From assembly GCA_965221125.1 (NCBI GenBank), contig CBDCRW010000006.1, forward strand, positions 448,001 to 512,000: 64,000 bases of DNA, written 5' to 3'. Numbering within the stretch: position 1 is the first letter of the stretch; every line of letters begins with the position of its first letter. The notes under the pieces are model-generated. The model was not told where the DNA came from. It searched no databases and was given only the letters and a program-made list of their open reading frames with translations. Both the position numbers and the translations under genes were made by a program. The stretch comes from Alphaproteobacteria bacterium. Lineage in GTDB: Bacteria; Pseudomonadota; Alphaproteobacteria; UBA828. Positions 37,062 through 39,797 of the stretch are shown piece by piece.

Positions 37062-37378
37062 CGAGGCGCTGCCGTCACGAGGTCATGCGATCGTGCGGGG
37101 GCGGCCGGGCGCGTGCGGAGTGGCGGCCGGGTGCAGGGAGTGGGGAGGGCCCATGGCGGCGCGGATTATGGGCGGTGCGACCGGCCCCGTCGAGGTGCGG
37201 GAGAGGGCGGCCGGCGGCACCGCGCCATATTTCTGTCGCATTCGTGGGTAGTCTTGGTGTCGACAGCCGGGGTGAACGACATGCGGCCTCTTCGCGCACA
37301 ACGCTGGCTCGAAGGCCGCACGCCGCGATGGCGGAGGGCGCTCGTTGTGGGCTGCGCCTTCCGTAATGGGGCGGTTGA

Positions 37379-37384
37379 TGTCAA
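37379..37384 (-). promoter_or_regulatory. -35 box (TTGACA) of the IS circle-junction promoter
   Basis: TTGACA on the minus strand. In the excised circle it is followed at 17 nt by GAAGAT, formed across the junction. Confidence 0.7.
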
Positions 37385-37529
37385 ACACCGATCTTCACGA
37401 TCTTCCGGCCTGGCACGGTGGCTCGCACATGAAGCACCGTAGCCTGTTGCAAATCGAATCACAGGCGCGGTCAACATAGCGGATTGCCATGGCGGGAGCG
37501 GCTAACTGACTCGTCTGCGCGGCAAAGAA

Positions 37530-37720
37530 GGAAGCGGGATTCCCGGATGTGTCCGTCGCCAGGCTCTCGCTTCCGTCCGTGGTCAGCGCAGCGGCTGCCA
37601 ACGTCATGCCTGGTCCAAACGATTCCCGAGTGCCGATCTTGGTCGCGTGCTCGAACGCGATGAAACGGTTCGGCCGACAAGACGCAGCGCGTGCATCAAC
37701 GGGAACCGCGTCCCGGCGAG
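37530..37720 (-). ncRNA. Predicted bridge/seekRNA of the IS1111 element (ends approximate)
   Basis: Hairpin-rich non-coding region with target-matching segments at 37678-37688 and 37638-37644 and donor-matching segments at 37606-37610 and 37570-37576. Confidence 0.72.
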
Positions 37721-37799
37721 GGGACACCGGTGGATCGCCACCTTCAGGCGCGGCTCTTTCCTCCTCTCGCTTCCGATTGCCGGTGGGATGCAGCCGCGC

Positions 37800-38843
37800 C
37801 TATGCCGTCTGGAGCGCCATCGCCTCCTCGCGCGTGAAGCGGAACTCGGTGCCGTCCCGCCACATCCGGTGAAGTACCACGCCGATGCGCCGGGCCAGGG
37901 CGACGGTCGCACGCTTCTTGCCACGGAGCTTCGCCAGACGAAGCGCCCAGGCCTTCAGCCAGTTCGGCCCGGCGGTGCCGTTCAGCATCACCGTGGCGGC
38001 CTGATAGAGCGCGGTACGCAGACCTGCGTCGCCGCACTTCGTGATGCCGCCGACAATATCTCGCTCGCCGGATTGGTCCCGGCCCGGCGTCAGTCCCACC
38101 CAGGGGCCGACATCCTTCGATCTCCGGAACCGCCCGGGATCGTCAATCGCCGATTTGAAGGTCAGGGCCACGACCGCGCCTACGCCGGGCATGGTCATCA
38201 GCAGCCGGCATACCGGATCCTCCCTGGCCAGATCGCGGACCAGCTTCTCCAGGCCGGCCAGCTCGCGGCGCAGAGCCACCCGCGCGCGCAGGATCGGTTC
38301 GGCGGCGGCCTCCAGCATCGCGTTGCCTGCGATCAACTCCCGGACGCGGGCCTCCCAGCGGCCCTTCGAGACCTGGCCCAGCTTCAGGCCAAAGTTGCGC
38401 AACACGCCGCGCAGCGAGAGTTCCATATCGGTGAGCGCGCCCTTCACGGACCTGCGCGAGGTCAGCAGTGCGCGCATCTCCTGCGACGATACCGACTTGC
38501 AGTGCACCGGCCTGAACCAGCCCATCTGCAAGAGCCGTGCGATGCCCTCGGCATCCCGGCGATCCGTCTTGATCGGCATCGCCTTCAGCGCTGCCTTCAC
38601 CCGCCGGGTCTCCATAAGGACGGCCTCGAAGCCGGCGTCGGTCAGCCCCTTGTGCAACCAGTGGGACAGGGGACCGGCCTCAAGACCGATCACGGCGATC
38701 TCGTGCTCCAGCTTGCCCATGAACGCAACCAACGCGTCAGGCGTGCTGGCGACCTGAGCCTCGGTCACGATCTTGCCCTTGTCGCCGATCACGCAGATTG
38801 TCGTGCTTGCCAGCGATACATCCAGCCCGATATAGACAGCCAT
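37800..38843 (-). CDS. IS110 family DEDD transposase/recombinase
   Basis: YIGLDVS (D), GLEAG (E), KTDRRDA (D,D), PGVG and GLTP...QSG (catalytic Ser) motifs; frame intact. Confidence 0.97.
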   Translation of the reverse strand: MAVYIGLDVSLASTTICVIGDKGKIVTEAQVASTPDALVAFMGKLEHEIAVIGLEAGPLSHWLHKGLTDAGFEAVLMETRRVKAALKAMPIKTDRRDAEGIARLLQMGWFRPVHCKSVSSQEMRALLTSRRSVKGALTDMELSLRGVLRNFGLKLGQVSKGRWEARVRELIAGNAMLEAAAEPILRARVALRRELAGLEKLVRDLAREDPVCRLLMTMPGVGAVVALTFKSAIDDPGRFRRSKDVGPWVGLTPGRDQSGERDIVGGITKCGDAGLRTALYQAATVMLNGTAGPNWLKAWALRLAKLRGKKRATVALARRIGVVLHRMWRDGTEFRFTREEAMALQTA

Positions 38844-39797
38844 GTCGTTGCCCTTTCCTCTCGAAGGATTGGGGCGCGCCTTCCGGCAAGACCCCGTGAG
38901 CACGCTGAGCGTGCAAGGGCAACGACACCCGATTCGTCGTCATCGGGACAGGCTCCGATGGTGCCGATTGGCGCCGAGCCCCATTACGGCATCTTGGTCC
39001 TGATCGGCTTAGCCATGGCGGTGACCCCGGCTGCCCCTCTCCGCGCCGGCGAAGCGGACGCCGCGCACGCGTCGCCCTGGGCCGCGGCCGCCGCCGAGGC
39101 GCGCATCCTGGCCGACCGCATCCTGCAGCGGGAGAGCGACGACCTGATACTGGACGGCAAGCGCCGGCGCGCGCTCGGCCACGAGATCAAGCAGGCGCTG
39201 TTGCTCATCCGCCGCGAATATCCGGCGATGGCGGACGTTTCGGTGCGTCAGGACGACCGCGGGGCGGCGCTCGTTCTGGGGCTGGAGGGCGCGCTGCGCG
39301 ATGCAGTCTTCGCCGCGTGGGACGGCGATGGCGGGGACGCGCCGCCGGCGACCGGGCACGGGGCGTTCGATGCCCTGGGCGCCGGGCTCGGGCTCCGGGC
39401 CGTGCAGGCGTACCCCGCTCTCGACTCGGCCGTTCTGTACCTCGACGAGCGCGCGAACGTCGCTGCGGCGCTGCGGGCGTATCGCGCGATCGACGGCGTC
39501 GGCTACGCCGAGCCCGACGCGATGCTGGGCGACGGCTCCGATATCGAGGCCGCCAAGGCAGACGGGCACTGGCATTTCGTCTTTCGCCGGGCGTGGGGCG
39601 ACTGCCCCGCCGGCTGCATCGACGAGGAACTTTCGTTCTTCACCGTGGCGGACGGAGAGGCCGCGCTGATCGAGCCCGCCCGGGCGCGCGCCATGGACGC
39701 CTTCGCCGCTCTCGTCGCCACCAGAGGCTGGCGCTAGAATGCCGCCCGCCGCCGTTCGCGCGCTGCCGGACGGCTTCGGGAAGCAAGGGAGAGCAGG

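What the first reader, a model, noticed from the sequence alone, without database searches (positions are those of the whole stretch)
37530..37720. Readable bridge/seekRNA: the non-coding end encodes guides for both this target site and the donor junction
Seen, reading the transposase (minus) strand. The rebuilt target is CAGGACC-AAG-GCGCAGC and the donor junction is ATTACGG-AAG-ATGCCGT. Downstream of the transposase the RNA would read, in order: GCUGCGUCUUG (37688-37678; pairs with target CAAGGCGCAGC at 10/11 plus one G-U), a CGAAC/GUUCG hairpin, GACCAAG (37644-37638; identical to target left half + core), then GGCAU (37610-37606; complement of donor right ATGCC), a UGGCAGC/GCUGACCA hairpin, and ACGGAAG (37576-37570; identical to donor left + core). 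This gives two guide-hairpin-guide loops, one for target and one for donor. Known: IS110/IS1111 recombinases use such RNAs, encoded downstream of the transposase in the IS1111 group. Inference: an intact, new RNA-programmable recombinase with a 3-nt shared AAG core and all four guides assignable by eye. The 5-nt donor-right guide is the weakest assignment.
Basis: partly seen in the sequence, partly recalled or inferred. Interest (0 to 1): 0.85.

Follow-up and report, generated by a model that had tools for sequence, protein, structure and literature searches.

The report
Insertion sequence with readable guide RNA
This is an intact mobile DNA element of a known RNA-guided type whose non-coding tail encodes an RNA spelling out both its insertion site and its own ends; it is a clear but ordinary new example.

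Summary
Window 37361-38992 (minus strand) is a 1,632-bp IS1111-group (IS110-family) insertion sequence: a 347-aa DEDD transposase, 12-bp sub-terminal inverted repeats, a 149-nt left end and a 439-nt right end. The genome holds 6 full copies, all in ACCAAG/(A|G)(C|T)GC-type sites. Relatives carry the uninterrupted site of the window copy with a single AAG.

A 182-nt block (37733-37552) is conserved in 34 distinct related elements. Its 38-pair structure is 96.2% paired, and 13 pairs show compensatory changes.

- the two target guides track each element's own flanks;
- ACGGAAG tracks the right end (41 of 45 identical);
- GGCAU tracks the left end (35 of 41 complementary).

Corrections:
- the shared core across the clade is AG, not AAG; the third base is read by the left target guide;
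- the last two bases (UG) of the 11-nt guide do not track the target in relatives;
- GGCAU alone is at chance level and has no core complement.

RNA production is only weakly hinted. This is a new member of a known kind; NCBIfam already names the protein an RNA-guided transposase.

The parts
37358..38995 (-). Whole insertion: a 1,632-bp IS (38992 down to 37361) with an AAG copy on each side (38995-38993 and 37360-37358).
   Evidence: The empty site in relatives carries a single AAG.
38978..38989 (-). Left sub-terminal inverted repeat CCGTAATGGGGC, preceded by the 3-nt terminal extension ATG (38992-38990).
   Evidence: It is conserved in relatives, and the two repeat arms change together (for example CCGTAACAGGGC with GCCCTGTTAC.G).
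37361..37372 (-). Right sub-terminal inverted repeat GCCCCATTACGG.
37800..38843 (-). Transposase gene, 347 aa, intact. D8, E55, D94, D97 and S258 align with IS621 D11, E60, D102, D105 and S241.
   Evidence: The roles of the IS621 residues come from a PMC11208158 passage. The N-terminal part of the alignment is weak.
37552..37733 (-). Conserved 182-nt RNA block (candidate long seekRNA / bridge RNA).
   Evidence: Alignment A1 of 34 distinct elements and structure counts.
37710..37725 (-). Hairpin P1 (GUCCC...GGGAC).
   Evidence: 98.8% of cells paired, with almost no variation.
37693..37709 (-). 5' strand of P2, the stem that closes the target-binding loop.
   Evidence: 13 pairs, 4 with changes on both sides.
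37619..37633 (-). 3' strand of P2.
37678..37688 (-). Right target guide GCUGCGU + CU (complement of core AG), 37688-37680. The following UG (37679-37678) matches here but does not track the target in relatives.
   Evidence: Its complement equals the consensus of the six right flanks and is a perfect match at copy L006.
37649..37674 (-). Hairpin P3 inside the target loop (GCCGAAC...GUUCG-A-GC, with a bulged A).
   Evidence: 5 of 7 pairs have changes on both sides.
37636..37644 (-). Left target guide GACC+AAG (37644-37638), followed by the conserved AU (37637-37636), which equals the first two bases of the IS left end.
37606..37610 (-). Right donor guide GGCAU, the complement of the IS left-end start ATGCC. 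It has no core complement.
37579..37602 (-). Hairpin P4 inside the donor loop (G.UGGCAGC...GCUG-A-CCAC, with a bulged A).
   Evidence: 8 pairs, with one pair changed from A-U to G-C in 15 of 34 sequences.
37570..37576 (-). Left donor guide ACGG+AAG, identical to the IS right end plus core.
37379..37384 (-). TTGACA, a candidate -35 of a circle-junction promoter. It lies 17 nt upstream of GAAGAT, which exists only when the right end is joined to the left end.
   Evidence: by my own reading of the printed right-end tails (the script's automatic hexamer pick failed for some rows), TTGAC stands in all 34 distinct relatives, in the same register in 33. No promoter was found in the integrated copy. 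The circle itself was not observed.

Best explanation
Window 37361-38992 (minus strand) is an active-looking IS1111-group insertion sequence of the IS110 family. Its right non-coding end encodes a structured RNA of about 180 nt, a long seekRNA / bridge RNA.

The 5' module is an internal loop closed by stem P2, with hairpin P3 inside it. [quoted passage not shown] The 3' module is built around hairpin P4, which has the same bulged-A shape as P3. It carries GGCAU, complementary to the first five bases of the IS left end, and ACGGAAG, identical to the last bases of the right end plus core.

The DEDD/Ser recombinase bound to this RNA would bring the circular IS junction and a chromosomal GACC-AAG-(A/G)CGCAGC site together and exchange strands at the shared AG.

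Shown here: the element's anatomy, site specificity, conserved RNA structure and guide/DNA covariation. Inferred from published relatives: RNA production, protein binding, the circular intermediate and catalysis.
For: **Family membership.** Pfam PF01548 + PF02371. NCBIfam 'IS110 family RNA-guided transposase' at 251 bits against a cut-off of 140. PDB hits to the IS621 and ISCro4 transposases at E about 1e-13, with the GLTP....SG serine motif aligned.

**Ends.** 12-bp sub-terminal repeats, a 149-nt left end and a 439-nt right end.

**Activity.** The genome has 6 full copies. All six have identical non-coding right ends. Five have an open transposase frame; copy L006 has a 21-nt insertion and an internal stop.

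**Site specificity.** 6 of 6 copies lie in ACCAAG | (A/G)(C/T)GC... sites. 5 of 6 have GACCAAG, and copy L006 matches the guide complement perfectly. Relatives carry the uninterrupted window site with one AAG.

**Target guides.** In 34 distinct related elements with different targets, the homologous RNA positions carry each element's own flank. 25 of 34 have an exact match of at least 6 nt (left) or at least 7 nt (right). Cognate pairs far exceed non-cognate pairs.

**Structure.** 38 pairs, 96.2% of cells paired, 13 pairs with changes on both sides. 0 of 500 shuffles reach the observed value on any measure, and the slid controls pair at 26-40%.

**Donor guides.**
- The left donor guide equals the right end in 41 of 45 distinct elements. 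This includes 9 of the 13 with a non-consensus end (ACAG, ATGG, ACCG, ACGA). Four of these changes sit at separate places on the transposase tree.
- The right donor guide is a perfect complement of the left end in 35 of 41. This includes GGUAU with ATACC and AGCAU with ATGCU.

**Order of matches.** It equals the order published for IS1111 seekRNAs (PMC11187229 section 9). Donor-binding nucleotides were predicted for IS1111 elements in PMC11208160 (passages).

**Transcription hint.** Contigs from RNA libraries of 3 studies cover the RNA region at full identity, for example 37484-37749.
Against: - No direct evidence of the RNA. The RNA-library data are contigs that show neither strand, ends nor level, and DNA can be present in such libraries.
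- Single-sequence folds are no better than shuffles (z -0.18 and -0.58).
- No Rfam family matches.
- The right donor guide is only 5 nt, at chance level on its own (8,473 of 20,000 shuffles). It is followed by GA where a core complement CU would be expected.
- Exceptions to donor covariation. For the left donor guide there are 3 elements with G opposite T and 1 true mismatch. For the right donor guide there are 4 wobble cases and 2 mismatches.
- The stem proposed to close the donor loop (P5) is weak: 85% paired, and its middle pair is unpaired in 18 of 34.
- For ISEc11 a short 82-nt seekRNA without the 3' half sufficed for transposition (PMC11187229 section 10). The donor module may therefore be dispensable.
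- 9 of 34 relatives show no strong exact guide/flank match.
Confidence: 0.85

Rival explanations
1. Only the 5' module is a functional guide (a short seekRNA). The IS ends would be recognised by the transposase through the sub-terminal inverted repeats. The donor-like matches in the 3' half would then be conserved for another reason, such as RNA processing or stability.
For: The short 82-nt ISEc11 seekRNA was sufficient and even more efficient, and the role of the long form was left open (PMC11187229 sections 10 and 14). GGCAU is at chance level alone and lacks a core complement. P5 is weak. Some elements did not update the guide when their end changed.
Against: The left donor guide follows 9 of 13 non-consensus right ends, in four separate tree positions. 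The right donor guide follows ATACC and ATGCU variants. Hairpin P4 mirrors P3, including the bulged A, and shows compensatory change. The 3' half is as conserved as the 5' half over 34 elements.
Confidence: 0.12
2. The same-sense matches (GACCAAG, ACGGAAG) are DNA-level repeats, meaning internal copies of the junction or end sequences that act as protein-binding or recombination sites, and not RNA guides.
For: A guide that pairs with the bottom strand is by sequence identical to a direct DNA repeat. Sequence alone therefore cannot separate the two readings for these two stretches.
Against: The other two stretches are reverse complements of their DNA. All four lie in loops of a structure with compensatory base-pair changes. 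The variable stretches are flanked by invariant RNA-like scaffold. Relatives of the family were shown experimentally to use such RNAs (PMC11187229, PMC11208160).
Confidence: 0.02
3. The conserved block is protein-coding (ORF 37395-37727 on the minus strand, 110 aa) and the matches are incidental.
For: An open frame overlaps the block.
Against: The alignment of relatives has 1- and 2-nt gaps and hypervariable stretches inside the block. Conservation follows base pairs, not codons. The window is G+C-rich, and long spurious ORFs occur in every frame.
Confidence: 0.01

Closest known systems
IS1111-family seekRNAs of ISEc11, ISPa11, ISKpn4 and ISPst6 (Siddiquee et al. 2024, PMC11187229; sections 6, 8, 9, 10, 13 and 14 read)
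   Same: - A DEDD transposase of 330-350 aa with the GL-P----SG motif.
- Sub-terminal inverted repeats.
- The long non-coding region downstream of tnp.
- The top-strand match lies 5' of the bottom-strand match, with the two overlapping at the insertion point.
- The P2-closed module of 91 nt fits the published short form (70-100 nt), and the 182-nt block is near the long form (145-170 nt).
- Natural retargeting among relatives that share a scaffold.
   Different: The target is different (GACC-AAG-ACGCAGC, inside genes rather than REP or attC sites). The RNA has not been shown experimentally here. Comparative data here assign donor guides to the 3' half, whose role that paper left open. I cannot say how similar the sequences are, because no ISfinder sequences were available.
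IS621 bridge RNA (Durrant et al. 2024, PMC11208160, passages; Hiraizumi et al. 2024, PMC11208158, passages; Hiraizumi et al. 2026, PMC13626964, abstract)
   Same: - Two loops, each with one guide for the top strand and one for the bottom strand.
- A shared dinucleotide core (CT there, AG here).
- The catalytic residues align.
- The RD-RDG pairing is irregular in both.
   Different: - The RNA lies in the right end, not the left, and the guide order is reversed.
- The sub-terminal repeats are long.
- The right donor guide has no core complement.
- The two bases after the right target guide's core complement do not behave as a clear handshake guide.
- The protein is similar only at E about 1e-13.
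Predicted IS1111-group bridge RNAs of ISCARN28, ISAzs32 and ISPa11 (Durrant et al. 2024, Fig. 6 and Extended Data Fig. 10; legends and text passages only, figures not seen)
   Same: A bridge RNA predicted in the right end, with target- and donor-complementary loop nucleotides. Donor-binding nucleotides are described as lying in a multi-loop rather than a simple internal loop, which fits the weak closing stem found here.
   Different: I could not compare sequences or structures, because the figures and supplementary tables are not held. Whether this clade is among the 93% of IS1111 elements with a predicted bridge RNA is not known to me.

Membership tests
IS110 family, IS1111 group (insertion sequence) | N-terminal DEDD RuvC-like domain and C-terminal Tnp domain with a conserved Ser-Gly | tested here: met
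   PF01548 (E 2.6e-16) and PF02371 (E 6.7e-22). NF033542 at 251 bits against a cut-off of 140. GLTPGRDQSG aligns with IS621 GLTPRRYESG, and D8/E55/D94/D97 align with the IS621 acidic residues (that N-terminal alignment segment is weak).
IS110 family, IS1111 group (insertion sequence) | Sub-terminal inverted repeats of 7-17 bp | tested here: met
   The 12-bp pair CCGTAATGGGGC / GCCCCATTACGG. The left repeat starts 3 nt inside the left end, and the right repeat ends at the right end.
IS110 family, IS1111 group (insertion sequence) | Longer non-coding region downstream of the transposase gene | tested here: met
   Left end 149 nt, right end 439 nt.
IS110 family, IS1111 group (insertion sequence) | Site- and orientation-specific insertion without a target duplication beyond the shared core | tested here: met
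   6 of 6 copies lie in related sites in one orientation relative to the site. Empty sites in relatives have one AAG.
IS110 family, IS1111 group (insertion sequence) | Circular intermediate with a junction promoter | tested here: inconclusive
   A -35 TTGAC is conserved in 34 of 34 relatives (33 in the same register, by my reading of the tails printed), 17 nt before the GAAGAT that only the joined ends would form. No circle junction was seen in the four runs laid (contigs only).
seekRNA / bridge RNA | [quoted passage not shown] | tested here: met
seekRNA / bridge RNA | Second loop whose nucleotides match the IS ends (donor) and change with them | tested here: met
   Left donor guide identical in 41 of 45, right donor guide complementary in 35 of 41, with variants that follow the ends. 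The right donor guide is short and has exceptions.
seekRNA / bridge RNA | Conserved secondary structure with guides in loops | tested here: met
   The structure was derived from this sequence and from RNAalifold, so the slid control is biased in its favour. The closing stem of the donor loop is weak.
seekRNA / bridge RNA | The RNA is made, is bound by the transposase and is required for transposition | not testable with these tools
   The only data are RNA-library contigs covering the region, which is a weak hint.
Rfam families | A match to a curated covariance model | tested here: not met
   No credible match at E up to 10 in 37200-39200. The best hits were miRNA models far below their thresholds.

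The most novel reading that the evidence does not exclude
In this IS1111 clade the 3' half of the 'long seekRNA', whose role was left open experimentally, would be a true donor-binding loop. It would read the last four bases of the right end plus A-AG (left donor guide) and the first five bases of the left end without the core (right donor guide). IS1111 donors would then be RNA-specified and reprogrammable like IS621 donors. The clade would also offer some 34 naturally retargeted versions of one 347-aa recombinase / 182-nt RNA scaffold. In addition, the conserved AU after the left target guide would extend pairing to the integrated left junction and so serve excision or strand exchange.
Probability: 0.55. 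Interest if true: 0.45.

Novelty: new member of a known kind. Interest (0 to 1): 0.3.

Why it matters
The finding adds no new principle. RNA-guided IS110/IS1111 recombinases have been described since 2024, and NCBI's own family model already names this protein an RNA-guided transposase.

Its value is as a clean natural data set. One conserved RNA scaffold is seen with about 34 different target guides, and with several co-varying donor-guide variants. This supports a donor-binding role for the 3' half of IS1111 long seekRNAs. It also defines which positions are programmable: 8 nt + AG on the right, and 4-5 nt + NAG on the left. That could help in choosing or engineering compact bridge recombinases.

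For annotating this genome, it explains six gene disruptions, including one at codon 3 of an HU-like gene.

Tried and rejected
- **Rfam scan** of 37200-39200 at E up to 10: nothing credible.
- **Single-sequence folding** of 191 and 440 nt: z-scores of -0.18 and -0.58, uninformative in this G+C-rich sequence.
- **Promoter and terminator scan** of the integrated element: 0 and 0 sites. No internal promoter for the RNA can be proposed.
- **Handshake reading of UG.** I tested whether the UG after the right target guide's core complement is a handshake guide, as in IS621. Across the 34 relatives the first of these positions is U, G, C or A, and it follows neither the target nor the invariant donor A consistently (by eye). 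I rejected this as a rule.
- **Core complement for the right donor guide.** I tried to rescue one by looping out GA. The following bases are not CU in any relative. Rejected.
- **Stem P5** (37613-37609 with 37563-37559) as the closure of the donor loop: weak support only.
- **An alternative pairing** of GGAAGCG with the downstream CGCTTCC is seen in this copy and in a few relatives but is not conserved.
- **RNA-library contigs** cannot give strand, ends or level. The stretches without cover (37200-37331, 39048-39150, and parts of tnp in single runs) say nothing.
- **The first LDG extraction pattern** was written one base off and returned nothing. It was corrected.
- **Locus L072** was dropped from the flank analysis, because the script had picked a 3-mismatch false right repeat.
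- **Loci without both ends, with short flanks or with an N** were dropped: 63 of 86 loci were used, giving 34 distinct non-coding ends.

Full report
**1. The observation.**

On the minus strand the window reads ...CAGGACCAAG|ATGCCGTAATGGGGC at about 38995/38992 and ...GCCCCATTACGG|AAG|GCGCAGCC at 37361/37358.
- GCTGCGTCTTG, 37688-37678;
- a CCGAAC/GTTCG hairpin;
- GACCAAG, 37644-37638;
- GGCAT, 37610-37606;
- a TGGCAGC/GCTGACCA hairpin;
- ACGGAAG, 37576-37570.

I shuffled the 439-nt non-coding end 20,000 times, preserving dinucleotides. GACCAAG occurred in 573 shuffles, ACGGAAG in 583, both together in 12, GCTGCGTCTT in 18, and GGCAT in 8,473. Three matches are therefore individually unlikely. 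The 5-mer means nothing by itself.

**2. What the element is.**

The ORF 38843-37800 (minus strand, 347 aa) carries PF01548 (DEDD_Tnp_IS110) and PF02371 (Transposase_20). It scores 251 bits against NCBIfam NF033542, 'IS110 family RNA-guided transposase' (cut-off 140).

Against solved structures it hits the IS621 and ISCro4 transposases at E about 1e-13. GLTPGRDQSG aligns with the IS621 serine motif. D8, E55, D94 and D97 stand opposite the IS621 acidic residues, though that N-terminal alignment segment is weak. The residue roles come from a passage of PMC11208158.

The ends carry a perfect 12-bp sub-terminal inverted repeat, CCGTAATGGGGC / GCCCCATTACGG. The left non-coding end is 149 nt and the right one 439 nt. 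These are the features that define the IS1111 group (PMC11187229 section 6; PMC11208160 passages).

**3. Copies and sites.**

The genome (7 contigs, 4.58 Mb) holds 6 full copies at 98-100% identity and one 256-bp left-end fragment. All six full copies have identical non-coding right ends. Five have an open transposase frame. The sixth (L006) has a 21-nt insertion and one internal TGA.

| Copy | Left flank | Right flank |
|---|---|---|
| L001 (window) | caggaccAAG | AAGgcgcagcc |
| L002 | ccagaccAAG | AAGacgccgct |
| L003 | gatgaccAAG | AAGacgcagtt |
| L004 | gagaccAAG | AAGacgcgcta |
| L005 | gtgtaccAAG | AAGatgcggcg |
| L006 | gatgaccAAG | AAGacgcagct |

The complement of the proposed 5' guide, CAAGACGCAGC, is the consensus of the right flanks and is perfect at L006.

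Congeneric genomes carry the window's locus uninterrupted, with one AAG...GATCAGAACCAAGGCGCAGCCCACAACG... in L091, and similar sequences in L089, L090 and L093. This fixes the boundaries and shows a precise insertion.

**4. Relatives and the core.**

A scan of one genome per species returned 80 loci encoding transposases 69-95% identical. Both ends could be located in 69 of the 86 loci held. After dropping a mis-picked end (L072) and loci with short flanks or an N, 63 loci with 34 distinct non-coding ends remained.

In all of them the right repeat is followed by AAG. The trinucleotide to the left of the element is NAG: 15 AAG, 13 CAG, 4 GAG and 2 TAG among the 34. The sequence shared between donor and target across the clade is therefore AG. 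The A before it at the right end belongs to the element. In the window's element the target also has A there, so the 'AAG core' is true of the sequence, but the third base is a programmable position, not a fixed one.

**5. Target guides.**

For each element I looked in its own non-coding end for the left flank (same sense, ending in AG) and for the reverse complement of AG + right flank.
- The matches fall at homologous positions: about +110 to +136 and about +150 to +187 after the stop codon. In the window they are at +111 and +155.
- A left exact match of 7 nt or more occurs in 22 of 61 cognate element/site pairs, against 6 of 1122 non-cognate pairs.
- A right exact match of 8 nt or more occurs in 14 of 61 against 1 of 1122.
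- By distinct element, 25 of 34 have at least 6 nt (left) or at least 7 nt (right); 9 do not.

Examples:

| Locus | Left flank | Left guide | Right guide match |
|---|---|---|---|
| L008 | TACCAG | TACCAG | GCGAGCGGCTG, 11 of 12 |
| L065 | GAACCAG | GAACCAG | TGGGTCGACTG, 11 of 12 |
| L018 | – | – | TCGCGCGCCT, 10 nt |
| L055 | – | – | TGGACGACTT, 10 nt |

The variable part is about 8 nt + CU on the 5' side and 4-5 nt + NAG on the 3' side. The two bases after CU (UG in the window) often do not match the target in relatives. The window's 11-nt pairing therefore probably has 9 designed positions. A Kordiimonas element with 18 copies keeps the left half (CCCAAAG) but has loose right halves.

**6. 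Structure.**

The alignment of the 34 blocks (A1, 212 columns; the window part is 37733-37552) has invariant scaffold around hypervariable guide stretches. RNAalifold found three elements:
- a 5' hairpin (P1);
- a long-range stem (P2, 13 pairs) closing the loop that holds both target guides;
- the hairpin between the donor stretches (P4).

I added the inner hairpin of the target loop (P3) and a candidate closing stem for the donor loop (P5). On this 38-pair structure:
- 96.2% of 1,280 cells are standard pairs;
- 13 pairs have changes on both sides;
- no measure is reached by any of 500 shuffles;
- partners slid by 1-3 columns pair at 26-40%.

P3 has 5 of 7 pairs with double changes. P4 has one pair that is A-U in 17 sequences and G-C in 15. 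P5 is weak: 85% paired, with its middle pair unpaired in 18 of 34.

One caveat applies. The structure was drawn from this sequence, which favours it over the slid controls.

P3 and P4 share a bulged A two pairs from the base of the stem, so the two modules look like duplicates of one design. The P2-closed module is 91 nt and the whole block 182 nt. The first lies within, and the second somewhat above, the published short (70-100 nt) and long (145-170 nt) seekRNA forms (PMC11187229 section 14).

**7. Donor guides.**

The ends are conserved in the clade, so only a few variants test the donor guides.

*Left donor guide (four bases before AAG).* It is identical to the right end in 41 of 45 distinct elements. 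This includes 9 of the 13 whose end is not ACGG: 4 ACAG, 2 ATGG, 2 ACCG and 1 ACGA. Three elements have G opposite T and one is a mismatch. On a transposase tree the matched variants L021, L025, L069+L074 and L059+L067 sit at four separate places among ACGG neighbours.

*Right donor guide.* It is a perfect complement of the first five left-end bases in 35 of 41. This includes GGUAU with ATACC (L030, L034) and AGCAU with ATGCU (L085-L087). Four cases are wobble-compatible and two are mismatched. The ATA/U variants lie in both major clades.

It is followed by GA where a core complement would be CU. PMC11208160 reports irregular RDG-RD pairing for IS621 too.

**8. Other features.**

After the left target guide, AU is nearly invariant. 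It equals the first two bases of the left end, so GACCAAGAU equals the integrated left junction. This could serve excision or strand exchange, but that is inference only.

TTGAC stands in all 34 right ends, in the same register in 33, by my reading of the tails printed. It lies 17 nt before the GAAGAT that only the joined ends would form. The integrated copy has no promoter-like or terminator-like site. This fits the junction promoter known for the family (PMC11187229 section 8), but no circle was seen.

**9. Expression.**

Twenty of the 24 listed public runs hold the element or part of it, six of them RNA libraries. Contigs from four RNA libraries of three studies cover the non-coding end at full identity: 37484-37749 in X15, and 37369-37587 and 37589-37722 in X17. 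Their loose ends at 37351 and 38999 show that those contigs come from copies in other sites. Contigs show neither strand, ends nor level, and DNA may be present in such libraries. This is a weak hint only.

**10. Comparison and verdict.**

The anatomy matches published IS1111 seekRNAs in location, order of matches and size. It matches the IS621 bridge RNA in logic: two loops, two strands each, and a dinucleotide core.

It differs from IS621 in four ways:
- RNA location and guide order;
- long sub-terminal repeats;
- a right donor guide without a core complement;
- no clear handshake positions.

Donor-binding nucleotides were already predicted for IS1111 elements (PMC11208160). A 2026 review still describes end recognition in seekRNA systems as a transposase function (PMC13604230, figure legend passage). 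The donor covariation here therefore adds modest support to an open point.

Overall this is a correct reading of an ordinary, unnamed member of a known kind.

Noticed in passing
window 37113-37360 and 38996-39737 (+ strand): The IS splits a plus-strand gene just after a hydrophobic N-terminal stretch (...RRALVVGCA | LVLIGLAMAVTPAAPLRA...). Relatives have the gene intact. The C-terminal 247 aa have no Pfam match.
   Followed up: partly
L006 (G000:C5:718279-719948) and L003 (G000:C5:55454-57101): Two copies sit after codon 3 (ATG ACC AAG | ACG CAG) of HU-like genes. The L006 flank scores PF00216 Bac_DNA_binding at E 7.7e-13. The L003 flank looks like a truncated paralogue.
   Followed up: partly
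L004 (G000:C2:65623-67268): This copy lies inside an ORF whose flanks read ...FADDFVVALED...LTLHETK | TRYVDF...FDFLGFTH, which resembles a group II intron reverse transcriptase. That is my recollection of the motifs and was not tested. A 5'-truncated IS110-family match lies about 5 kb away at C2:60018-60803.
   Followed up: no
L006, transposase gene: This copy has a 21-nt insertion near codon 40-50, a few substitutions and one internal TGA, while its non-coding right end is identical to the others.
   Followed up: partly
L007 (G000:C6:220871-221126): A left-end fragment of the same IS (256 bp, 96% identical). Its flank is different (...TATATTCAG), and it breaks off inside the transposase gene.
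   Followed up: partly
G000:C3:392157-393134 and G000:C4:166507-167484: Two copies of a different IS110-family transposase (315 bits to NF033542), not examined further.
   Followed up: no
own genome: No unoccupied exact ACCAAGACGCAG site remains in the genome, and only two exact ACCAAGGCGCAG sites do (C6:266528 and C6:851141). The numbers are small.
   Followed up: partly
L034-L051 (Kordiimonas MAG), L024, L015, L054, L058, L067: Extra solo copies of the right inverted repeat lie 35-400 bp downstream of the element's right end. L024 has three at 35-bp spacing, and the Kordiimonas loci have one or two. This is unexplained. They might be remnants of earlier insertions or part of a repeated target.
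   Followed up: no
L030, L052, L075 (alignment A1, right target guide): In these three lineages the core complement in the right target guide reads CA instead of CU, although the target core is AG.
   Followed up: no
window 37736-37796: One RNA-library contig (X16, record 9) joins 37735 to 37797. It skips the 61 poorly conserved bases between the stop codon and the start of the conserved RNA block, so a shorter variant of the element exists.
   Followed up: no
record titles; Near-identical transposases (84-93%) are listed in genome bins labelled as other phyla (Binatia, Chloroflexota, Thermodesulfobacteriota, Gemmatimonadetes). This may reflect horizontal spread or binning error. Many of the listed runs that hold the element are labelled sponge metagenomes.
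   Followed up: no
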